DNA of 64,000 nt, from assembly GCF_963676685.1 (NCBI RefSeq), contig NC_092356.1, positions 29,388,001-29,452,000 on the forward strand, in the 5' to 3' direction. This DNA comes from Mytilus edulis. Its lineage: Eukaryota. A program made the position numbers and the translations under genes. Positions 1-15,900 of this stretch are shown piece after piece. Below the pieces are notes generated by a model, which saw only the letters and a list, made by a program, of their open reading frames with translations, ran no database searches and was not told the origin of the DNA. Every line of letters begins with the position of its first letter. Position 1 is the stretch's first letter.

Positions 1-744
1 GAAGACTTAAAAATCACGATTTAAAATTCCTATGGAGATTTGCATTGAAAAAGGGAGATAACTCTGTCAAAAAAGTAGAAATATCAATAAAAATTGATAC
101 AAAAGTATAACTTTATCGCTTCTATATAACACAATGTATTGATTCTTGATATTCTAGCTGTCTTTAGAGTATAACAAACAACTCTAATGGTGTTTTCATA
201 TCTTTTATCAAGCTACAATCTAGATTTCTTAATTTATTAGTTGACCATTTATTGAATTTTTCAGCACATCAAGGTATAGAATCTCAAATTTAATAAAAAT
301 AATTGAGCATATATTCTTCTTTATGTGCTTTAAAGTTTCTTTTAACAAGGTTGATGCTGAACAAATATAATATACAGATAAAAAAACATGCCATACCAAA
401 TTTTCACATTATTTTTTCACAATGTTCACAAAGCCACAAATTTGCAATTTGTTTAATGAACACTGCACAAAAAAAATAAAAATACACATAATACTTCGGT
501 TTTGTACATTTCATGAGCAGAATATTATATAATATAGTCAAATACGAACTTATAAACCCCATCAAAGTATCATACTTTACATAAATTTTAAGAAAATCAA
601 TCAAAAACTGACAAAAAAAGATTCAATTTTGCAGAGTTATCTCCCCTTCCAATGTAATTTCCATAGGAAATGAAAAATGCTGATTTTGAGTTTTCCTCAA
701 GTAAGATTTTACCGGACTTTTTCCTGTGTATATTTAGGGCTTAA

Positions 745-1145
745 GGATGTACTTTGGTGATCTAAGGTAAAATTAAATAAATCAAGAATTCAAAATTGTA
801 ACTTTAAGCTGGAAGAGTATAAGTTGAGGATCAAAATAAGCTAAAAATATTCATAGGTCATGGAGCTCCTTTTCAAGATATTTGATTTATAAAATATGGC
901 GAGGAAAAAGCTGACTCGGACTTTTACCTTATATTTGCATTGGTATTATTTGGGTCTCAAATCAAAAGAAAGAAAATCAAGAATCTGCTTAAATTTTGTC
1001 AAATGAACTGTTATGTGCTATTAAGTCTTATGTAAAAATATAAATAGGTGTTATGGGGCCAAATATTTTACCGTGTTTCATATGGAAAAACACCAAGGAG
1101 TCCGAACTTTTGACATTTATTCCAAAACCTCACCTAAGTACATCC
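745..1145. mobile_element. Non-autonomous TIR element (MITE) with TTAA target duplication, Kolobok-like
   Basis: TTAA at 741-744 and 1146-1149. TIRs GGATGTACTTTGGTGA / TCACCTAAGTACATCC match at 15 of 16 positions. GG..CC termini. Confidence 0.7.
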
Positions 1146-2079
1146 TTAATGGTATAGATAAGAACTTAAACATTTTCTGTTGCAATTAGTTTGAGGTTAA
1201 AACTTAGTTTGACTGGACTATAAAATTAATGAAATAATTTTAAACCAGGAAAATTTCCTTAAGCTGAAGTCCAGTAATCATGAACTCAACGGGTAGCTAT
1301 GTCAAAACAGACACTCCATTTGGTAGTCAAATCTTTACCACAAAACTTTTACTAATTTTTGACAGATTACTATACTCTGTGATATTGAAAGCAATAAAAT
1401 AGATTCCAAAAAACTTACCTTCTTTTTCAACACATTTTTTATAAATTATTATGTACATTATATCCGGAAATTATCATGTCAGGTTTTGTTTGAGTCATGT
1501 ATGTATATTGGTCAATTTAATTCTTTGCTGTTCATTATTTGTGTTTCATGACCTTGAACAATGAATTAAAATGAATAGAAGTATAGTTTTATTTTGCAGT
1601 AAAATGTCTACAGCTGAATAGAAACTATTTGACAAATTTAAACAATTATTGGATTCACATACAATACTAAAATAAAATGCTCTGCAAGTCATAGCTTGAT
1701 ACGACCGCAGAGGTCGAACTCTGAACAATTGGGGCCAGTATGGACACAATATTCAAGCTTGTTACAGCTCTGAATTTGGATTGTGATTAAATATTTGACA
1801 CAGCATAGGTTTCTGACACAGAATGAATGTGGTCTAATGAACTCAAAAAATTTAAATTTACCAAAATCTAAATACATGGATTGATTCAGCATATCAAAGA
1901 ATCCCAAGAATTTTTTATGAAATCAAACAAAGTTTAATTTTGGACTCTTTTGATCTCAATGTGGACCAATTTGATAACAGGGATGGACGAAGACGACAAC
2001 GTGATACCAATATATGGCCGCAAATTTTTTTTTGAGGTCAAATACAAATCTTAGTCTGTCTTATTCTAAGGAAACCTAC

Positions 2080-5000
2080 CTGTCGATCTGCAGAGCAAGA
2101 AACACCTATTCCTACAGGACAAGAGGCACCATGTCTTGGCAGCCGAATGACCCTTACATCATGGCAAAAATATTTCCCACCAAATTGAGCACCTATTCCA
2201 GCTCTCTGTGTCAATTTGTGGATTTCTTCCTCTAATTTTCTATCTCTAAATCCTCTTCCATGTTCATTTCCTAAGTAATGTACAAATATAAAATCTTTTA
2301 ACGTATTTACACTTTTAATATTTAGCTGAAATTTGTCTAAGATGACTTTGGATTTGCTCCAAATAACCTTCTGACAACAAGCTTAAAAATAATCACTTTC
2401 TTATTGTGGTGTCAAAGTTAACGGGCACATGTTTGATTTTGCGTAATGGTAGAAAAATTTGCATACAAGTGTATTTAGGGCTATTGAAGAGACTTGTTTT
2501 GTAATAATCTATATTTTGGTATGTGTGATTTTTTTAAAGTATTTCTATGCTTTTCATTATTTTCACAGTGTCAAAAATCTACCTGTCATGGTACATGTAT
2601 ATTGGTAGATATTTAGCAAAGACAAGTTTGACATACACTATTTTAACAACCTTCTGATAGAAAATAGGCCACTTCACAGTAAGTTCTGCTGTATTGAATA
2701 GGGGGCAGATTTTTTGGATAGAGGTGAAAATAGTATGAAACAAGTGAAACTGCGAGCTACTGCTCACTGATGATACCCCCGCCGCAAGTGGATAATATTA
2801 ATAGTGTAAAAATATGCAAGTGTTCGGTAAACAGGAAGTTGTCGAGTGATGAATCTGAAAACGCATCACACGGTATAGCTGACTTATAAAAATCCTGAAA
2901 CCAAATTTCAGAAATCCTTGTATTGTAGTTCCTGAGAAAAATGTGACGAAAATTTTCAACTTGGCTATCATGTGTAAAATCATACAAGTGTTCGGTAAAC
3001 AGGAAGTTGTCGAGTGATGAATCTGAAAACGTATCACACGGTATGGCTGACATATATAAATGTTGATACCAAATTACAGAAAGGGTGGATGTGTAGTTCC
3101 TGAGAAAAATGTGACGAAAGTTTCATGGGACGGACTGACTGACGGACTGATGGACGGACGGACGGACTGACAGACAGAGGTAAAACAGTATACCCCCCCT
3201 TTTTTAAAGCGGGGGTATAAATATGGGAAATCCTATGCATGTTTTTAAGCAACTGTTCTGTTTTAATGATTTCCTGTATTTTTCAAACGGTTTTTAACCC
3301 CGTTATGACAATCTGCTCCCTATTCAACATGGCTACACTATTTGAAGGGGTCTATTATCTTAACATTTAGCAGAGGGAATTTTCACATACAATTTCTACT
3401 TACCTTCACATGGTAAATTATCTAAATATTTAGCAGAGGCAAGTTTGACAGTCTTCAGATTAAATTCTGCCGATGTTCCACCAATAACAACTGCCAAATG
3501 ATAAGGCGGGCAGGCTGCAGTACCTAGCGTCTGAAAACAAAACATTACTAACAATCTCAATTGATTGATTATTTGGTGTTTAATGACACTTTCAACAATA
3601 TTGTCATGATTGTGCTATTTTGGAATAATAGGTATGAAATTATTTGCCTTTCTTAATTCATTCTACATTTTTTTTCCATGTGTAAGATGAACCAACTGTG
3701 CTAAAATTTAATTGAAAGTACTTTCAAAGCATTTTTCTTTCAATAGAAAAAAAATAATGAAAGACTAGTATTCTGACATATTAAACATAACAACACATCA
3801 TCCTCTAATTAAAATCTATCACCTTTGCTTTCTCATCCACAAATTTCAGAAGTTTCTCTGGATTCAGTAAAGCTTTAGTCTGTTGATACAGAAATGTTTT
3901 ATTGGCAGACCCGCCTCCTTTTGCTATAAACAGGAAGTCATACTGACTTGAATCTGTCGAATAGATTTCAATCTGTGCAGGAAGATTTGTCTTTGTGTTT
4001 ACTTCTGTGTACATATCCAAGGGCGCAACCTGAAAAATAAATTGTAAGTTCAGAAGTGATTATGGATAGAATATATTGAATATAAATTAGTGAATACTAT
4101 AATTCTAGTCACAGGGCAAACGCACCATGAACCTCAACTGCCGGCCGGATTATACCTTTTAATCTTTAAAAACCTAAACTGTACAACTTTTGATCTTATA
4201 ATTCTCATAAAAAAATTATTTTTGATCGATGAAAGTCAGATTCCCCGTATTCAATATACGGCGTATTGGTATGCTATGATAAAGTGTTCATTTTATATCC
4301 TCATAATTCTCGTATGGGAAATAATAATTTCATGGTGGGCTTGCTTTTGATGAGAATTATTTTACCATTCAAGATAGGTTTATATGTTTATAGAATTTGT
4401 TTATGTAACTGTTTACATAAACAGATAGTAGCTACGATTTTCATTAAAATTATTTTTTTAATGTTTATGCCGGATTTTGTATAAAAAGTTTAATAAGTAT
4501 GATTGAAACAATTACTGGTTACTTTCCATTTAGCATTTAGAAGCTTTCTAACGTTTTAACACCTTAATTTATTTCTTGTCTATAGATAATAATTCCATGT
4601 TAAGCCAACCCTTATTCATATGACCTATGTTGATCTATGTTGACCTTAACTCAATGCGCAAGGAAAAATTGTCGAACAGGGGAATGTTATCACGGAAATG
4701 GCACATGAATTTACAGTTTCTGCAAGAAAAGAAACAAAAAAGAGATGCAGACAAGTTATTGTAAATTAAAAATAAAAAACGGCTATGAGATCGGTCATTA
4801 AAATCATACAAAAAACCTGTGACGCAGGCAAAGTCAAACAGAAGAAGCCGACGGTATGCGTAATGTTTATGTTTCTTAATTATTCCAGATCACATGAAAA
4901 TAAATCGCAACGTGTTCATTTTTGTCAAAACTATGTTTATAAATTTACAGGCAGTGATCTCCCACCTTAGAAGAAACTAGAAAATAACTTCCTACAATTT

Positions 5001-8000
5001 AGTATTATTCTTCCAGTGTATCCTTCATGGAGGCCCCGATCCAACACACAAACACGTGTATACATGATTATCGGCATGGTTTGGTCATACAAATTTAATA
5101 ACAAGTGTATAATATTGCCATTGTTGGAGAATCTTGGGTTGGAATAATATGCGGGTTTTTGTTATATTTTTTATTTACATAATTTGATAAATGGCGTCAA
5201 ATATGTAAGTTTAATATGAAGTAATTATCAAATACGTAAGAAAACAAAAAGCACATGTTCATATCTATTTATATCTTGGTTAGCTCACTCGCTATGTTGG
5301 CAAAGTTTGGGAAGTAAATCTGATGCATAATTAATGAGATGAATAGGCACGCAACACAATATGAATTATCAATTATTAACACATCTGTAGTTTATGAAAA
5401 CATTCTAGCGATCTTATTGCTTATTTTTAGTACTAATCTTTGATTTTAGCAGCTTCAAAACTGGTTCATAATTTTGTCAAAATCGTAGCTACTATCCCTT
5501 TAAGGTGACATGTTTATGGCCTAATCAACACCTTTGATTGTCTTTTATCTGTTGATCACTTTATCTTGGGTTGATAAGTGTGATCACTACGATTTACACG
5601 GGTCAATGTTTACTTTGCAATTTCCTTCATCCAGACAATTTGTAAACTTCGATTCTAATGGCTCAATTTTATGATTTCTTTTTAGAAAACTTTAAATCCA
5701 CGAATTTAAAAACCCACGAACTCGTAAATGTTGCTCAAACCACGAAAATTGATACCCATGAATTAAAGTACTTTCACAGTATAACTGTGTATAAGAGAAA
5801 ATAAATTCATGAATCAAATTGATGCCCTTTAATTTAAAGAGCTTAAATTTAGCTTTTCATGTTAAATTCTACAAACCAAAGCTATGTAAACTACATAGTG
5901 TGGAGTTGATATGTAACTGTTTTAAAAAGGTAGCTGAAGCTTGCCTGTGGGTGCAGGATTTTCTCACTGTGTTAAAGACCCATTGGTGGCCTTTGGCCGT
6001 TTGCTGCTTTTGGTTTGGTAGTTGTCTTTATGACACATTCCCAGTTTCCATTTTCCATTTTCCATTTACATATATACTCAGTAAATTACCTGTGAATACC
6101 TCAGATTTTTCTGCGTATAAGTGTTATAAACACCTTTAGATAAAGCTGCAGCATCGTTGCCCTCTGTCCATACATACTGACCCTTCTTTCCTGAAAAATA
6201 AAATTATTTTGATATGTATGTGTCTACAGTCAATGGAAACATTGATTTTTCATTGGTTTCAGTTTTTACATATTGAGGAAAATATGTATTTGTTTTGGAT
6301 ATTTGATGTTTTGGTTTTGCCTAAGTTTGCATACAAGCCTATAGAAAATGTGTACTTCATTTAGCATTTGAATTCATGTTTTACCTATACACATGCAATC
6401 AAGGCCTGATTTCTGACAGAAAAAAATCTGTTTTTAAATATTATTTATCTGAATGTTTTTACTTTATTTTTTAATAATATCTCTGAGCTGCGTCCATACT
6501 CCTTGAAAAATTGATATCAAAGTCTCCAAAAACTCAGTCAGTAAGTCATGCAGTTGAATCCACTTTAAATTTGAAGGGCGATGGGGTCTGTACTACTGTA
6601 GAAAACTTTTCTGTTCATTCTTAAAAGATTCAATGTAAAACTTAAATTTACAAAGTGAAACAAGCATTTAACACTTTATTTACATAATGTGGATTCATTT
6701 ATTTTCATGGATACCAATTTTCATGGTTTGAGAAAAACATGCATATTCAGGGATATTTAATTTCCTGGTTTTGGCAAAGACTGCATACATTCCTTTATAA
6801 AATTTGCAATTCGTTGAACATTTAAATTTGCAGTATTTATCATTTAACCTACCCATACAAATAGCAGTTCCTGTATCTTGACATCCTGGCAGAACCATGG
6901 CTGATGCTATATTGGCATTCTTCAGAAGTTCTAATGCTACAAACTTGTCGTTCTCTGAAGACTCTGTGTCCTTAAGGATATTTGCCAGTTGCTGTCAGAT
7001 AAAAAGAATCAGGTTAATTCTACATTTAGTGGTATATTTTATAGGTGAGGAAATAGATAGAGGGCACAAAACACCTCTTTTATCAGATCTTTTTGTTAAA
7101 TATTAAAAAAAACAGGTGCCTCCCTACACTCAATGGTATTTTTACCTTGACAAAAAAGCGACAATCATGCCCCCTTTTCTTGAATCCTTAATCTGTACCT
7201 GAATGATCCTTTGTGGCAGCCATACAATATCAGTATTATCCCCCCAGTATGGATAGAATATTATTAAATGAAATGGTTCATGCAAGATGTTTTCTAACAA
7301 ACATAACCGACATATGTTGCTGTCAAGCATACTCATAATACTGTATTGAATGTGCTGGCTGTGCCATGAACATTTTTGTTTAAACAATAACCAATTCTAT
7401 GTACTTGTACATATCAGGGTTATAGATTAGACCAACAAGGATGCATGTATATCACCAATAACTAGTTTGAAAAAAAGTCAAAATTCAGTTGATGTTCCAT
7501 AGTTTAATGAACATTACCTGCAAGTGTCCAGGTCTAAGAAGATGTGCAATATCTATCATTGCCTGTTCAGCCAGCAATGTTAAAGCTTGTGGTTCTACTT
7601 TCAGAACTTTCTTCCCCATAACATCAAAAGTTGACACATAGTCACCTGCAAATTACATGATATACACTGCCAATAACATCAAATGTTGACACATATTCAC
7701 ATGTAAAACACATGATCTACACGTACACATAACATAATTTTTCTGAACAGTTTTCAGTCAGATATATAACTCTATAGGGTTATTACAGAAAATAACATAC
7801 ATTTGTTACTGTGGACTAAAAAATCAAAGAACTGTGATAACATATGTATGTTACATGTTTCAAAGGGACAATATACATCATTAGTTTAGTAAAAATGTAT
7901 ACAAGTTCAATTGATATTACTATTGTCTTTATGTAAACTTAACTACAGAAAGATATAACAGTTCATAAATTGTCAATTATGCATAGTACACCTATGTTAT

Positions 8001-8894
8001 TACAGAAAAAATATGCCTATAATAACTAAAGGGTGTTATCACATCTACTCCAAAGCATTTGCTCAGACATAGATCATGCTTTACCTTAATTACAATGTAT
8101 TTTAATTCATTGTAAGAAATAATGACCAGAGCATGTAATGAGGTTCTGCACAAGTGTCTCATATAATAAGTTACATTCCTTTAATAACTAAGCCTTGTTA
8201 TTACAGCTAAGTCTATCTCTAAAAAGCCTTGTCTCATTGATTTACCATGGTTAATCAAAAATGTATTAATCTAATTTAAAAAATAGTTATCAAGGCTATG
8301 CATTCAGTTTCTGCGCAAAGTCTGAAGAGTTCCCTAGAGCCCACTATATATTAAAATATTTTACAAACAATAAACATATGTTATTACAGATTTAGAAAAT
8401 TTAAGGAATAAAGAGTAGACAACTCATGAAAGTATCTGTAATAACACATGCAAGTTATTTCCTGTAATAACCCTATAGAGTTATATCCCTGACTGGTTTT
8501 AAATCCTTTTAGCCTTGCTCAATTTATCACTACATGTAGATCTAGTATTAGGATCTTTTATCTGAATTTTATGTATCATGTGTATTGCAGTTTTGCTAGT
8601 CAAATAAATAAATCAACTGTGTAACCCTCCAAAATGAGTGCCAAGGGAAATAACTTGAATTCAAATCATTTCTGACAGGAGAAATCCTCTTCAAGGAGGA
8701 ATGGAATGATTACCTTCATTGTAACAGTACATACCAGTTAGTTTTTTCCATGGTGTGTCCAACGGTTTTTCTGATTCCAGTATATCCTGGAAATAAAACG
8801 GTTTGATGGCAGCTGCTGCTTGTGCACTTTGGTGTCTTGTACTGACTGAGTAGATCTTAGCACAGATTCTTCTTACACATTTAGATGACTGCAT
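2080..8894 (-). CDS. fumA: Class I (Fe-S dependent, FumA/FumB-type) fumarate hydratase, probably mitochondrial; 3' part lies beyond the left window edge
   Basis: Coding exons in transcript order: 8894-8735, 7645-7518, 6991-6853, 6190-6090, 4029-3823, 3530-3404, 2270-2080. All junctions GT-AG with consistent phases, giving 351 aa. Motifs: [64 protein letters not shown]. The N-terminal ~35 aa are Arg/Lys/Ser/Ala-rich with no acidic residue. The symbol denotes the homologous bacterial family. Confidence 0.95.
2739..3221 (-). mobile_element. Helentron/HINE-like non-autonomous element with 168-bp internal repeats
   Basis: Terminal palindrome TATACCCCCGC..GGGGGGTATA, a (GACG/GACT)n microsatellite, two 168-bp repeats (2821, 2989), a subterminal inverted copy ATACCCCCGC and a short hairpin near the other end. 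Confidence 0.65.
7755..8495. mobile_element. MITE in a fumarase intron; ~34-bp TIRs, 5-bp TSD
   Basis: CAGTCAGATATATAACTCTATAGGGTTATTACAG versus the reverse complement of 8462-8495 (2 mismatches). GTTTT flanks both sides (7750-7754, 8496-8500). Confidence 0.7.
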
Positions 8895-9707
8895 TATACC
8901 TAGAGACAGAAAACGCAAAAATTGAAAGCTGTAAACAATTATACACCATTATCCAGAATTGATGAACTATAATAATATATCAACATGAACATGCATGATG
9001 GAGGTGAAACAAACCCAATACACAAAGTAACACATTGTCTTGGTTTTCAACATTGATCTGTTTGTTTCGATTTTTCTAAATAAACATGAATAAAGTAAAA
9101 GAATATTTTGTCAAAGCAAAAAAATAAAATAGCCTTTCAAGACGCCATAATTATTTGGGCTAGTATACAGACTGCTGCTGTAAATGTAAAACTTAGGCAC
9201 CAGTTTGAGGTACGGGGTATCTGCCACTTTTACAATGCTATACCAATTATAAAATAGATTGTTTTGAATTGTGGACAAAAGTGCTGTTTTAAAATTTCCA
9301 ATTGAGAGCCTCCATGAACCCCCCCTCTAAATAGTGACAGATGGAAACTGCTATGCCTTGCACCCTTTGAAAGAGGGAATTCCTTATACAGATACATGCA
9401 TGGTAAGGCTGTTGCAAATGTTTGTCAATATTTTCCCAAATAGACTTCATAGAGCTTGATAAGGGATTCTGAGCCGGCCAAATCAGATAGTCGCTCCAGA
9501 CTAAGAATCCTAAAAGAAATTAGTATATATTAATAAAATCAGAATCTGAGGAAAATATATCATGAGCCCCGACTTCAATCAAAATACGTTGAAAATGTAT
9601 TTAGAACATAATCTAGATTGCTATAGACTCTAATGTTTGCAGTCATTCATTAAATCTACTGAGGACCTGAAACCCAATGTTTTTCAAACGAACAAATGTC
9701 AAATAAC

Positions 9708-9901: not shown

Positions 9902-12900
9902 ATGTCTAAAGAAATGGATAATCAAGATGCCCCAATAACATTTGCGGATATTGGAATAACTAAAACACCACAGCTTGCCGATACTCGTTTAGGCAAGGTA
10001 TAACTATGCTTTAAAACAAAGGAAAATACTATCATATGTTGATATTGATTCTTCCTACTTCTGTTGAAAGCATGATATTTTCTATTTTGATAAAAAAAAG
10101 TATATAACAATCTAAAGAACAAAATCAAAGGTCTTTCCACCTTATCAAAAATCAAAATTCAATCATTTTTTTCTTGATGAAAGCCGCCTTATGTTTGAAA
10201 TTATTTGAAAAATTACAGAGCATGCAAAATAAGCATTTGAAAATCACGATGCATGTTAAATAAAATAAGCAGAACACGTTGAACGGAGCACTTGTCTTGC
10301 ATGACTGAATGTCAAATAAAAAGTAAAAACATGTTGAACGTCAAATTAAAAACAGCGATCATGGCGATCATGTTGCACAAAAATAACCTTTTACAGTGTT
10401 CATATAAGAAATTCAAACTATAACAAACTATAAAAACAACAAACCCTTCAAACTCATTAGTCGAAATAAGTATGTGTATAGTGAGAAAGTAAGAACTTAA
10501 TATACACATCCATGGTGGAAAACATTCAACTGATAATTCATGTATAAAAACTAAAAATAACAAAAGCATATAAACAACACTGAACAGTATACAAAACACA
10601 CACCCAATTTAAAACTGGGCAACATGAACTCTTCTCTACACAATCTCAATTGTTGATGTCGTTCTGTGTAATTGTATCTCATTCTATAGATATAGGAAGA
10701 TGTGGTATGAGTGCCAATGAGACAACTCTCCATCCAAATAACAATTTATAAAAGTAAACCATTATCATGATTATAGGTCAATGTACTGCCTTCATCGAGG
10801 GGTGGCAATACGATTTCATGTTAGCCTGTTTTTAGCATTTTTCAAGCTGTTGTTAACTGTTATCTGATATCAATTTAAACTGTTATCTGTTTTCAACCCA
10901 CCTTGTTAACTGTTATCAGTATTTTTGAATTTTTTGTTAACTGTTTTGGCCAAAATCGAGGTGTTGTTAACCTATTAACAGACCCCCTATTGCCCCTTCT
11001 CTTTAACAAAGAGCCTGGGCCCACAACAATTTTGTAATAGTATTTCATTAAAAGTTGAACTAATGTTTTGTAACAATACACTTTGATCTTATTTAGGCAG
11101 GTAACGTTCTCAAGAAACTATAAATCTTTGAATATGATTTATCTGGTACAAACATTGATTATTGACATAATGCCTACATGGTTCACGAAATTAGCACAGA
11201 ACCGTCAGGACATGTCCTGTAAAAATATTTTCGGTCCTGTCAATTCTTGTTTATTTTATTTTTCTGTAATACATTTCTAAAATATTTTTGGTCCTGTCGA
11301 TTCTTGTTTATTTTGTAATACATTTCTAAAATATTTTTGGTCCTGTCGATTCTTGTTTATTTTGTAATAAAAAGAATTTTTGGAAGAATCATTGATTCGG
11401 TCCTGTAAATGCCAAACGCCAATTTCTATTAATTACTGAGTGTGTAGGATCTTCATACAGTGGATTCACTATTATTTGTGGCATACCAATTTTCATGTGA
11501 ACACGGTGAACAGGTGAACCAAGAATTCAAATTTGTAATGAAGTATAAATTATATATTGGCTAATATTATAATGCAGATATTTGTAAAATCACAAAATAA
11601 TATGAAAATGAGATATCCAAGAAAAACATTTATTGTGACCTTAATCCACAAAATTGGTACCCTTGAAAAGAAATAAAGTCACTGTATTTCATGTTCAAAT
11701 GAAAATTTACATTTTTGTTTTAAATTAAAACAAATGTCTGTCAAAGATGTTTGAAGATAAACAAAATTTGAACAAACAAACTTATACTGTTTATATTTTC
11801 AGAGACGAGTTTTCAAGGATATCAACAAGCAAGAGATAGGGTTTTCTACTGTGGCATGTGTATCTTTAGTGGCAGCATTAGTCTTGGCTATTGTCAAAAT
11901 AGTTGAACTTGCAAAAGATCAAAATACTAAAGATCCAGATTTTACATTTGCTTTGATTGTCATTATAAATACAAGTAAGTACCTGTATATTTCATAAAAT
12001 GAATTTGCATGCAAAAAAAAAGGGGGAGGGGAGGGGAGGGGGATAACTTAAGGTACAATTGAAAACTATAAATCAAAGTCAACAGCAGACAACAGTCCTC
12101 AACACATCATAGACTGTATTATGGCTGTTTCAATTTTATATTTTCTTATATATAAAAAGAAGATGTGGTATGATTGCCAATATGAGACAACACAAGAGAC
12201 CAAAATAACACAGAAATTAATAACTATAGGTCACGGTACAGCCTTCAACAATGAGCAAAGATATGACTGTTCTTGATTTTGTTACATTGTTTATGTACTT
12301 CCAATGAGATGTGATGCATAGGTGCTACTTTTCCAATAGCTTTGTTGATGTTACAAAATTGTATCAGAATGAAGAATACCAACATCACTTATCATGCTAA
12401 TGTAGGCTGTAGGGTGACCTTCGGTTGTTAATTTGTGTCGTCTAGTCCCTGGTGGAGAGTTGTCTAATTGGCAATCATACCACATCTTCTTATTTTGTAT
12501 TGATATTCCAAGTGGCCATTGTACATGTTGTATGTTATTGTAGAACATATAGACTGTCAAAACATCTTGGACATGTTTTTTTTCACATTTTTCATTTCTA
12601 CATTTTTATACAAATTTTAAAATAGTCATGTTAATGTAATTTTGTTTCTCAAAAAAAAATATGATGCAAGTTTCTTAACAATATTTGATTTCAGTATTTT
12701 GTTTGTACTATGTGTTGAATGGGATACTTGCTGAAAGACCATATGAGATTCTAGTTTTTGTCTTAGCAAACATAATAGTGTGGATATATGTCATTGCTAA
12801 TTATGCTATTAGTCCGGGAGATATCAAATTGGTAAGGAATTGTTTAACATTAAGACATCTTTAATTTAAATGTTTCAGCAAAAACAAATACTTCTTTATA

Positions 12901-15900
12901 CTAAATTTGTTTGGATGTGTACTAATTGCTATTTGGTAAGAAATTGTTAAACATTCATTGAGACATCTTTTATTTAAATTTTTTAACAACAACAACAACA
13001 AAAAATCTTTCTTTATACTAAATCTGTTGGATGTGTACTGATTGATAGCTTAGCATTGGATATCAAATTGGTAGGAACTTGTTTTATATTTAATATATAA
13101 AGTCTACTAAGGGGTACATCTTTTACTTATGAGTTGAATTTTGGCTTTTAACTAGCTTTTAGATCAGTACTGTCATGACTGTGTGTCTTTTGTTTTTGTT
13201 TTGTGCTTAGGACTGATTTGAGACAACATATTTCAATTTTTATATGACCGCCAAATTTTTGGGGGGTATATTGGTATCACGTTGTCGTGATAAAAAAAAT
13301 CTAAGTTCATTAGACCACATTCAGTCTTTGTCAGAAACCTTTACTGTGTCAACTGTTTAATCACAATTCAAATTCAGAGCTGTATCAAGCTTGAATGTTG
13401 TGTCCATACTTGCCCCAACTGTTCAGGATTCGACCTCTGCTGTCGTGTAAAGCTGCGCCCTGCGGAGCATCTGGTTACAATTAGGTGCATGGTTTATCTT
13501 CAACTGTAGTTTTTATTAGTTTATGAAAGAAAGATGTGGGTGTAGTACAGCAACACAACAACAACAAAATTTTAAAATATGCATTTATGCATGCATTATT
13601 ATATCATTGGTATTTTACCTTCAATATATTTGTGCCATGTTCAGTTTATTTAAGAAAAAAACGTTGAACTTTCTTACAGTTTTTGAATATTCTGATACAT
13701 TTCAGAAATTAAAGAAACCTACATGTTTTCACTCAGTTTGAAATATTATAATTCTTATACATTTCAGGTAAGACTTGTACTAGCCTGTATTTTAAGTCCA
13801 ATATTGATAGTACTTGGAGTACTGATTGCTAAGCTGTATAATGATTCAGGAAAACTTATTTTTAGAACAGTTGGAGCAAATACTGAGCAGCAAGCAATGT
13901 GTAAAACAATGTTTGCATTTTTTGGACTCTTAAAATTTGACCTACAATTAGGGGTAGGTATAATTCTGTTATTTCTACAGAATATATATGTTTTATATTC
14001 TTAATGTTTTTAATTTTTAACCGGATTTTTTTGACAAATGTCGGTTATTGATTTGGGGATATACGGCAGGTGGTTGGGTGGTCGGGCGGGCGGCAACCAA
14101 ATGTTGTCCGTTCATTTACTCATGAACCATTCAACCAAAGCTTTTCAAATTTTAATATGTTGTTACAGACAACAAAATGAAGGTCAAGTTCAATAATGAC
14201 GATTTTGACTTTTACCGTTCAGGAGTTATGGTTCTTGAAAGATTGAAAAATGGCATTTCCAGTCGTGTCCGTGCATTTACGCATGAACCATTTAACCAAA
14301 GCTTTTCAAATTTTAATATGTTGTTACAGACAACAAAATGAAGGTCAAGTTCAATAATGACGATTTTGACTTTTACCGTTCAGGAGTTATGGTTCTTGAA
14401 AGATTGAAAAATGGCTTTTCCAGTCGTGTCCATGCATTTACTGATGAACCATTCAACCTAAGCTTTTCAAATTTTAATATGTTGATACTGATGACAAAAT
14501 GGAGGTCAAATTTGATATTGACGATTTTCACTTTCACCGTTCATCAGTTATGGTTCTTGAAAGATTGAAAAATGGCTTTTCCAGTCGTGTCCGTGCATTT
14601 ACTCCCGATGAACCATTCAACCTAAGCTTTTCAAATTTTAATATGTTGATACTGATGACAAAATGGAGGTCAAATTTGATATTGACGATTTTCACTTTCA
14701 CCGTTCATCAGTTATGGTTCTTGTGATATTGGCAGGACACAAATAAATGTTAATAAATCCAGTTTGCTGTCCTTGTGACAGCTTCTTGTTGTCATTAGAA
14801 TGCTTTTCCCAACTGAAGATATTTTTAATTCTTATACCCATGTGCGATAGCAGATTTTGTTTTATAATCAGATGCATGTTCAGTTTACATACACTGTGAG
14901 CTTCAATTAGTTAAGAAATTCCATAGCTTATCTCATTTAAAACATAATTTCACTTAAGACAGGCCCCAGTTAAAACAGAGTTTGGTATAAATAAGTCTTG
15001 TATTTTGTGTATTGCTGTTGCATTTCATTTAAGAAAAGTTTTTTTTATTGACAAATGTATGTAATGAAATCAATAGAATAAATGTCCGTTGCTCTTTATA
15101 TTTAGTCAACATGGTAGCAGTACACTCTAGACATTCTAAGATTAAAGAATACCCACAACAATGTGTGTAGTCCCATCAATATTAACATACAAAGGATAAG
15201 TTAAATTGGTGACATGTAGACATATAAATATTTATTAATATGTTATAATAGATGTAATTGACAATTTAATGCATTAAATTGCAAAAGTTAATTTGTTTAT
15301 TTGAGAATAATTTAATTTTGGATGTAACACGTCTTCTGATTGGCTGACGTTATTTTGTTATCAGCCCATAGACATAATTAAGTCATGTGACCGTGACGTC
15401 ATCAACTTTTTTTCATTGTTTTCTACGGTTTAAAATGGAATTTAGAATTAAATTATAAGAAATGACTGTAATATTTTTTTCTGTCTATTCGAAATAACAT
15501 AAAAAATGTGGTGCACACTGTTAAATAACCCGCTACGCGCGTTATTCAGTGTGCACCAAATTTTGTTTGTTATTTCTTCATAGACAGAAAAAATATTAAA
15601 CTCATTCCTTAATGAAAACAAAAAAGTTTTAATCGTTTTATTTTGTTTACAGTTAAGTATGGTGGTATTGATCCTTACAAATGGAACCAAGACAGATACC
15701 CAAGACATTGTCATTTTATCAGTGGGACCTGTTTATACTGTTATTTGTTTTTTACTTGGATATCTCAGTGTAAGTTTATTCGGTTGTTCCTTTTTCATTC
15801 TGTTCCTTGTTCATTCATCCATTCAATCATTCTTTTATTTTGACTTTAAGATTTATTATTTATTTATATATTGCCTTCTTCATTCATTCATTTCATAATC

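What the first reader, a model, noticed from the sequence alone, without database searches (positions are those of the whole stretch)
2080..8894. Intron-containing class I Fe-S fumarase in an animal genome
Seen: seven spliced exons encode a FumA/B-type enzyme with Cys133 (CQDTG), Cys252 (CPPYH) and Cys346 (SCSADR), a C-x118-C-x93-C spacing. As I recall, this is the [4Fe-4S] ligand spacing of Leishmania class I FH. There is a mitochondrial-type leader. Established: vertebrates and the main model animals use only class II FH; class I is typical of bacteria and parasitic protists and is reported in flatworms. The introns exclude bacterial contamination. Inference: an oxygen-labile fumarase could serve the malate-dismutation/fumarate-reduction pathway that intertidal bivalves use in anoxia.
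Basis: partly seen in the sequence, partly recalled or inferred. Interest (0 to 1): 0.72.

Follow-up and report, generated by a model that had tools for sequence, protein, structure and literature searches.

The report
Iron-sulfur fumarase: mussel's mitochondrial Krebs enzyme
This mussel gene is an intact, spliced iron-sulfur (bacterial-type) fumarase shared by many invertebrate groups, and it is likely the mussel's everyday mitochondrial Krebs-cycle fumarase, because the only human-type fumarase gene found in the genome starts with a predicted transposon-type DNA-binding domain instead of a mitochondrial address.

Summary
Observation confirmed. Seven exons lie in the window and five more just outside it. 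They give a stop-free 569-aa class I Fe-S fumarase, identical to an already annotated Mytilus edulis protein, with all 13 Leishmania active-site residues. All six window introns are spliced in RNA.

It is not a bivalve anoxia novelty. Named orthologues occur in ten animal phyla, including land snails, octopus, sea stars, amphioxus and Trichoplax. The 31 animal rows form one clade (SH-aLRT 98), though an AU test did not reject a mollusc-only transfer. A 2026 survey already lists class I in 81 of 1,277 animal proteomes.

The new point lies on another contig. The only class II fumarase locus found begins with an acidic 363-codon CENP-B/Tc5 helix-turn-helix exon, spliced in frame in RNA-type contigs of two runs and in gene models of five Mytilus species; no raw read crossed that joint. 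Class I is therefore likely the main or sole mitochondrial fumarase, for aerobic and anaerobic flux alike, and class II may be a DNA-tethered enzyme. Localisation is untested.

The scan had not noted this gene; it noted a parallel fumarase-DNA-binding fusion in archaea.

The parts
8735..8894 (-). Coding exon 1 (aa 1-53): basic, acid-free leader and start of the mature protein. An AG acceptor 5 nt before the ATG suggests an upstream non-coding exon.
   Evidence: RNA joint 7643-8733; a run X5 contig carries 20 extra nt beyond 8901
7518..7645 (-). Coding exon 2 (aa 54-96)
6853..6991 (-). Coding exon 3 (aa 97-142): Cys133 ligand, Gln134, catalytic Asp135
6090..6190 (-). Coding exon 4 (aa 143-176): Arg173
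3823..4029 (-). Coding exon 5 (aa 177-245): Gly216
3404..3530 (-). Coding exon 6 (aa 246-287): Cys252 ligand
2080..2270 (-). Coding exon 7 (aa 288-351): His334, Cys346 ligand
1..2079 (-). Window part of intron 7. Coding exons 8-12 (aa 352-569; Arg421, Thr467, Thr468, Arg471, Lys491 and the stop) follow left of the window in L001, G000:C13:29387569 down to 29380715.

Best explanation
This is an intact, spliced class I [4Fe-4S] fumarate hydratase gene, likely inherited from early animals, whose product is predicted to enter mitochondria and is likely the mussel's main or only mitochondrial fumarase. Shown: gene structure, splicing, all catalytic residues, one locus found, wide animal distribution. 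From the Leishmania enzyme: three cysteines hold the cluster, the Thr467/Arg421/Arg471 group acts as base, and Asp135 with His334 acts as acid, interconverting fumarate and L-malate. Inferred: it runs fumarate to malate in the aerobic Krebs cycle and malate to fumarate in anoxia, because the only class II locus found has an acidic CENP-B-type DNA-binding first exon in place of a presequence and so would stay in the cytosol or nucleus.
For: 569-aa open frame over 12 exons, identical to P0305. The related protein P0001 (88% identical, no gaps) matches Leishmania FH 5L2R at E 1.7e-225. 13 of 13 active-site residues listed in bioRxiv 2022.09.03.506457 are present, and 65 of 67 tree rows keep all 13. 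One locus for both Pfam domains. 58 of 59 named animal class I proteins have at least 3 R/K and at most 1 D/E in the first 25 aa. 31 of 31 animal rows form one clade, SH-aLRT 98; 13 molluscs 97. One class II locus in three searches. Its first exon scores CENP-B_N 6e-10 and HTH_Tnp_Tc5 1e-13, has 8 D/E in the first 25 aa and joins exon 2 by GT..AG in contigs of runs X1 and X5. All 8 named members of its cluster, from five Mytilus species, carry the fused junction. No presequence-like exon in class II intron 1; 2 candidates in 23.7 kb upstream against 3 on the control strand; the intron 1 acceptor is an in-frame stop. Patella and Mactra class II models also lack a leader. bioRxiv 158956 notes that where both classes occur, class I is often the one predicted mitochondrial.
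Against: No localisation or activity data, and no true targeting predictor was run. 0 raw reads crossed the HTH-fumarase joint in either raw run; the other three class II joints had only 0-6 reads. Contigs drop rare variants, so a rare presequence-bearing class II isoform, or a first exon more than 23 kb upstream, is not excluded; 7 unnamed members of the 22-member cluster were not listed. A stand-alone 365-aa HTH form also exists (P0295-P0297, P0299). Amphioxus has class I and also a class II with a 48-aa leader, so the split is not general; Oculina and Actinostola class II models lack full leaders too, so leaderless models are weak evidence. The AU test did not reject molluscs grouped with bacteria (lnL 43.5 lower, p 0.129). 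Tree rows were picked as best hits to animal queries. PMC13655608 reads eukaryotic class I as several transfers from bacteria.
Confidence: 0.72

Rival explanations
1. One reading: the enzyme is a dedicated anaerobic fumarase for malate dismutation during emersion, while another fumarase serves the aerobic Krebs cycle.
For: Class I enzymes are oxygen sensitive. An unspecified 'FH' transcript clusters with MDH1 as up in hypoxia in M. chilensis gills (PMC11203016 section 3.10). Malate dismutation in mussels is recalled knowledge.
Against: Orthologues occur in land snails, octopus, cuttlefish, echinoderms, amphioxus and Trichoplax. No presequence-bearing class II was found to do the aerobic job. 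Class I joints are seen in 4 of 4 runs laid, from four studies of unknown conditions, and are better covered than class II joints (means 5.7 against 1.8 and 14.8 against 2.0 reads; thresholds differed, 90 against 96 likeness, which biases class II low).
Confidence: 0.12
2. Mitochondria hold both classes through an undetected class II isoform, and class I is kept for a side reaction such as mesaconate or tartrate hydration.
For: Class I enzymes also interconvert mesaconate/citramalate and tartrate/oxaloacetate. Amphioxus class II keeps a leader beside a class I gene. Class II RNA coverage was too thin to see rare isoforms.
Against: No such isoform among 8 named Mytilus models or in two RNA-type contigs; exon scan at control level. 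The active site is identical to the Leishmania fumarase at 13 of 13 residues.
Confidence: 0.11
3. The gene came from bacteria into molluscs or spiralians separately from other animals and gained introns later.
For: PMC13655608 argues for several transfers into eukaryotes. AU p 0.129 for molluscs plus bacteria. Bacterial proteins are 65-74% identical to P0001. No cnidarian, sponge, arthropod, nematode, tunicate or vertebrate name among the 2 x 120 rows listed.
Against: Animals are one clade at 98, and 44 rows of animals, algae and unnamed proteins group at 98 apart from the bacteria. Trichoplax, deuterostome and priapulid proteins are 72-79% identical to the mussel or Trichoplax protein. Gaps or starts of partial models from Mya, Tegillarca, Lymnaea, Clonorchis and Opisthorchis fall on mussel exon borders, hinting at shared introns; the amphioxus insertion does not.
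Confidence: 0.05

Closest known systems
Leishmania major class I fumarate hydratase 2 (PDB 5L2R) and the 585-residue fumarate hydratase chain of PDB 6MSO
   Same: Single-chain two-domain class I enzyme; P0001 aligns at E 1.7e-225 with no gaps from residue 131 to 564, so mussel and Leishmania numbering coincide; 13 of 13 active-site residues kept.
   Different: Twelve-exon animal gene; kinetoplastids have only class I, in two copies, whereas the mussel has one class I and one class II locus.
E. coli FumA/FumB long-type class I fumarase (PF05681 + PF05683; NCBIfam NF011919, NF011920)
   Same: Both Pfam domains above cut-off; NF011919 E 2e-265 over nearly the whole length.
   Different: Scores 881 and 864 are below those models' cut-offs of 1105 and 1094; it carries an N-terminal leader and introns.
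Annotated invertebrate 'fumarate hydratase class I, aerobic-like' proteins (RefSeq; 81 of 1,277 animal proteomes in PMC13655608)
   Same: This gene is one of them: identical to XP_071146197.1.
   Different: No experimental study of an animal class I enzyme turned up in my searches. The survey's text never mentions molluscs and favours repeated transfer; my tree favours one animal origin with losses.
Dual-targeted class II fumarase of humans, rat, yeast and Arabidopsis (PMC13655608 Table 4; PMC6068284)
   Same: One fumarase in mitochondria and one outside; nuclear class II makes fumarate locally at DNA breaks in human cells.
   Different: In Mytilus the two compartments would be served by two unrelated enzyme classes, and class II carries its own predicted DNA-binding domain.
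SETMAR-type host-transposase fusions and CENP-B/pogo domestications (general kind recalled; SETMAR named)
   Same: A transposase-type DNA-binding domain spliced in frame to a host enzyme.
   Different: Here the partner is a core metabolic enzyme; no transposase catalytic domain was detected in the exon. This concerns the class II locus, not the window.

Membership tests
Class I (Fe-S) fumarate hydratase, single-subunit type | Fumerase (PF05681) and Fumerase_C (PF05683) in one chain | tested here: met
   272 and 294 bits against cut-offs of 25 and 22
Class I (Fe-S) fumarate hydratase, single-subunit type | Three cluster-binding cysteines (Leishmania Cys133, Cys252, Cys346) | tested here: met
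Class I (Fe-S) fumarate hydratase, single-subunit type | Catalytic and substrate residues Gln134, Asp135, Arg173, Gly216, His334, Arg421, Thr467, Thr468, Arg471, Lys491 | tested here: met
   10 of 10 identical
Class I (Fe-S) fumarate hydratase, single-subunit type | Closer to fumarases than to tartrate dehydratase | tested here: met
   Class I fumarase models 764-881 bits; tartrate dehydratase subunit models 53 and 85 bits
Class I (Fe-S) fumarate hydratase, single-subunit type | Bound [4Fe-4S] cluster, oxygen-labile fumarase activity, homodimer | not testable with these tools
   Needs anaerobic reconstitution and assay
Mitochondrial matrix protein | Cleavable basic amphipathic presequence and import | tested here: inconclusive
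   Composition proxy met (5 R/K, 0 D/E, moment 0.73); no predictor or localisation available
Anoxia-specific enzyme of intertidal bivalves | Restricted to anoxia-tolerant lineages | tested here: not met
   Named hits in ten phyla, including land snails and cephalopods
Anoxia-specific enzyme of intertidal bivalves | Induced by hypoxia or emersion | not testable with these tools
   Run conditions are not given; the M. chilensis 'FH' is of unstated class
Class II fumarase (partner locus G000:C3:42.702-42.710 Mb) | TIGR00979 above cut-off and the signature motifs TGSGTQxN, GRTHxQDA, GSSIMPGKxNPxQxE | tested here: met
   753.8 bits against 664.75; motifs present
CENP-B/pogo-type DNA-binding protein (first exon of the class II locus) | CENP-B_N followed by HTH_Tnp_Tc5 | tested here: met
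   39 and 51 bits against cut-offs of 21 and 22
CENP-B/pogo-type DNA-binding protein (first exon of the class II locus) | DNA binding and nuclear location | not testable with these tools
   Basic clusters at 144, 185, 202 and 264 lie in or next to the HTH domains; no binding data

The most novel reading that the evidence does not exclude
Mytilus has swapped the textbook animal arrangement. An oxygen-labile Fe-S fumarase is the only mitochondrial Krebs-cycle fumarase, and the human-type class II enzyme has been fused to a domesticated pogo/CENP-B DNA-binding domain and sits on chromatin, where it makes or removes fumarate locally to tune demethylases or DNA repair.
Probability: 0.4. Interest if true: 0.78.

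Novelty: new variant of a known kind. Interest (0 to 1): 0.5.

Why it matters
The gene in the window is a known kind and is already annotated; alone it would score about 0.3. It matters for two reasons. First, a single animal clade across ten phyla suggests that early animals had both fumarase classes and that the class-II-only state of vertebrates is a loss, against the repeated-transfer reading in print. Second, if class I is the mussel's only mitochondrial fumarase, the Krebs cycle of an animal that cycles daily between anoxia and reoxygenation depends on an oxidant-sensitive cluster at this step, which is directly testable. The class II fusion would be a natural DNA-tethered fumarase, a test case for local fumarate signalling on chromatin, where human fumarase is recruited through phosphorylation.

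Tried and rejected
Bacterial contamination: rejected (six spliced introns, 75-Mb contig). Missing or broken C-terminal exons: rejected. The exon 1 peptide found no solved structure. No indexed RNA holder was on record as RNA; raw-read runs were laid instead. ESM Atlas with an oyster homologue returned only fumarate hydratase clusters, nothing new. The first FastTree run held 7 bacterial rows read in the wrong frame; it was discarded and the frames fixed, which used 67 of 227 rows. A search of 1.84 billion representatives with the HTH exon gave 150 listed hits, 0 with a fumarase domain. The closest (P0333 cluster, 74% identical, organism unnamed) shows the same F-V-C pattern at the mussel splice point and ends 13 residues later, but whether it is spliced to a fumarase is unknown. 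A metagenome scan for its DNA found only distant HTH proteins or short matches among 80 loci. So the range of the fusion beyond Mytilus is untested. Two primary Leishmania papers were not held; residue numbers come. Paper searches listed no study of a mollusc class I fumarase or of the fusion; some searches showed only the top 15-25 of many hits, and most subscription papers are not held. Table 1 of bioRxiv 158956 is an image, and the figures and supplements of PMC13655608 could not be read; either may list molluscs. No structure or complex prediction was run.

Full report
Observation. They join in frame with GT donors and AG acceptors into 351 codons, with cysteines at 133, 252 and 346. Four exons tested alone each match Pfam Fumerase above its cut-off. 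The window is G000:C13:29388001-29452000. The Fumerase_C search found four matches just left of it, and five further exons complete a 1,710-nt frame of 569 codons plus stop. The product is identical to P0305, a RefSeq protein named 'fumarate hydratase class I, aerobic-like [Mytilus edulis]', and 556-567 of 569 identical to three other Mytilus species. All six window introns are spliced in two raw-read RNA runs and in contigs of two further runs whose RNA status is a guess. Both domain searches found only this locus.

What it is. P0001, an unnamed protein 88% identical without gaps, matches Leishmania major fumarate hydratase 5L2R at E 1.7e-225. After subtracting the chain's 36-residue offset, the numbering coincides from residue 131 to 564. 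bioRxiv 2022.09.03.506457 (passages read) lists three cluster cysteines and ten catalytic or substrate residues; all 13 are identical in the mussel protein, and 65 of 67 tree rows keep all 13. The mechanism is taken from that paper: Thr467 with Arg421 and Arg471 as base, Asp135 with His334 as acid. Activity was not tested here.

How widespread. Two protein searches (120 rows listed each, of about 8,000 scored) and one cluster look-up name orthologues in Mollusca (bivalves, gastropods including land snails, cephalopods, a chiton), Annelida, Nemertea, Platyhelminthes, Rotifera, Priapulida, Echinodermata, Hemichordata, Chordata (amphioxus) and Placozoa. No vertebrate, arthropod, nematode, tunicate, cnidarian or sponge name appeared in those rows; ranked lists cannot prove absence. 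In an IQ-TREE LG+G4 quick tree of 67 rows (31 animals, 14 algal or unnamed, 22 bacterial), the animals form one clade at SH-aLRT 98 and the 13 molluscs one at 97. The best bacterial matches are mostly Alphaproteobacteria, Myxococcota and Actinomycetota. An AU test of molluscs forced with bacteria cost 43.5 log units but was not rejected (p 0.129), and the rows were selected as best hits to animal queries, so vertical descent is favoured, not proven. Gaps in partial models give a weak extra hint: Mya and Tegillarca lack almost exactly mussel exon 10, Lymnaea has an insertion at intron 6, and Clonorchis and Opisthorchis fragments start at mussel exons 2 and 3; the amphioxus insertion matches no mussel intron.

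What is in print. PMC13655608 (parts 1-4 of 5 read; figures and supplements not seen) finds class I in 81 of 1,277 animal proteomes and argues for repeated transfer from bacteria, while noting that eukaryotic class I embeddings mostly cluster with Alphaproteobacteria. Its text has 0 hits for Mytilus, mollus-, bivalv-, fusion, DNA-binding or transpos-. bioRxiv 158956 (passages; its Table 1 is an image) says most multicellular eukaryotes with class I also have class II, and that in many of them class I, not class II, is predicted mitochondrial. So a class I fumarase in an invertebrate is known.

The class II partner. Three searches found one class II locus, G000:C3:42.702-42.710 Mb. It passes TIGR00979 and keeps the catalytic motifs, and its enzyme domain is 97-99% identical across Mytilus. 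Its first exon is a 363-codon frame with CENP-B_N and HTH_Tnp_Tc5 domains, and its N-terminal 170 residues match only this place in the genome. Contigs from two studies join it by GT..AG, in frame, to the first fumarase exon, and all 8 named members of the 22-member cluster, from five Mytilus species, have the same junction. The N-terminus is acidic (8 D/E in 25 residues), whereas 58 of 59 named animal class I proteins have a basic, acid-poor start. No presequence-like exon lies in intron 1, and the upstream scan gave 2 candidates against 3 on the control strand. Against this: no raw read crossed the fusion joint in either raw run, at low class II coverage (0-6 reads at the other joints); a stand-alone 365-aa HTH form is on record, and intron 1 has a poly(A)-like hexamer, so the locus may make two products. 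In Patella and Mactra class II models the enzyme core starts at residue 9 and 13, but Oculina and Actinostola models are similarly short, and amphioxus class II keeps a leader.

How it most likely works. Shown: an intact, expressed class I gene with a full active site, and a class II gene led by a DNA-binding-type exon. Inferred: class I is imported into the matrix, receives its cluster and serves as the main or sole mitochondrial fumarase. Class II would be cytosolic or nuclear. In human cells nuclear fumarase makes fumarate at DNA breaks and inhibits KDM2B (PMC6068284, passages); a built-in DNA-binding domain would do the tethering directly. That last step is speculation. PMC11203016 (passages and section 3.10) reports 'FH' up in hypoxic M. 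chilensis gills without naming the class.

Earlier scan notes. None of those shown concern this gene or an animal class I fumarase. Several unchecked notes describe a class II fumarase fused to a ribbon-helix-helix domain in Marine Group II archaea. That is a different domain in a different lineage; I did not test it and count it only as a parallel.

Verdict. The anoxia-specialist reading is unsupported. The surprising part is the apparent division of labour in Mytilus, with the Fe-S enzyme in mitochondria and a transposon-domain fusion on class II, which I did not find in the papers searched. Interest 0.5.

Noticed in passing
G000:C3:42702091-42710181 (L012:6091-7179 and downstream; L009, L010): The only class II fumarase locus found has a 363-codon CENP-B_N + HTH_Tnp_Tc5 first exon spliced in frame to the enzyme (825 aa in RefSeq models); a stand-alone 365-aa HTH form is also on record. 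Deserves its own follow-up.
   Followed up: partly
window 9902-15898, + strand: A multi-exon membrane-protein gene with DUF7789 matches in four frames (best E 2.6e-10) appears to start about 1 kb from the fumarase start codon, head to head; a shared promoter region is possible.
   Followed up: partly
window 8899-8901 and upstream: AG acceptor 5 nt before the ATG and 20 unplaced nt on an RNA-type contig point to a non-coding first exon that was not located.
   Followed up: no
window 2760-3220 and L001 about 7950-9070: The same 168-bp-unit repeat element sits in intron 6 and in intron 8 of this gene; reads from many other copies pile on the window copy (depth over 2,000 in run X21).
   Followed up: no
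window 1-384: Dispersed repeat with 40 other listed matches at 87-90% identity across the genome, a lower bound.
   Followed up: no
window 14105-14723: 161-bp tandem repeat, 3.8 copies, 94% matches, within the span of the DUF7789 gene.
   Followed up: no
P0013, P0026, P0040, P0066 (proteins): Mactra has two class I proteins, and a more divergent clade holds Mactra, Ruditapes and Mya copies, suggesting a duplication in clams.
   Followed up: no
P0167-P0286 (class II search): After the Mytilus cluster (96%) the next class II proteins are at most 77% identical, and only Patella and Mactra appear as other named molluscs, so class II may be divergent or missing in other mytilids and bivalves.
   Followed up: no
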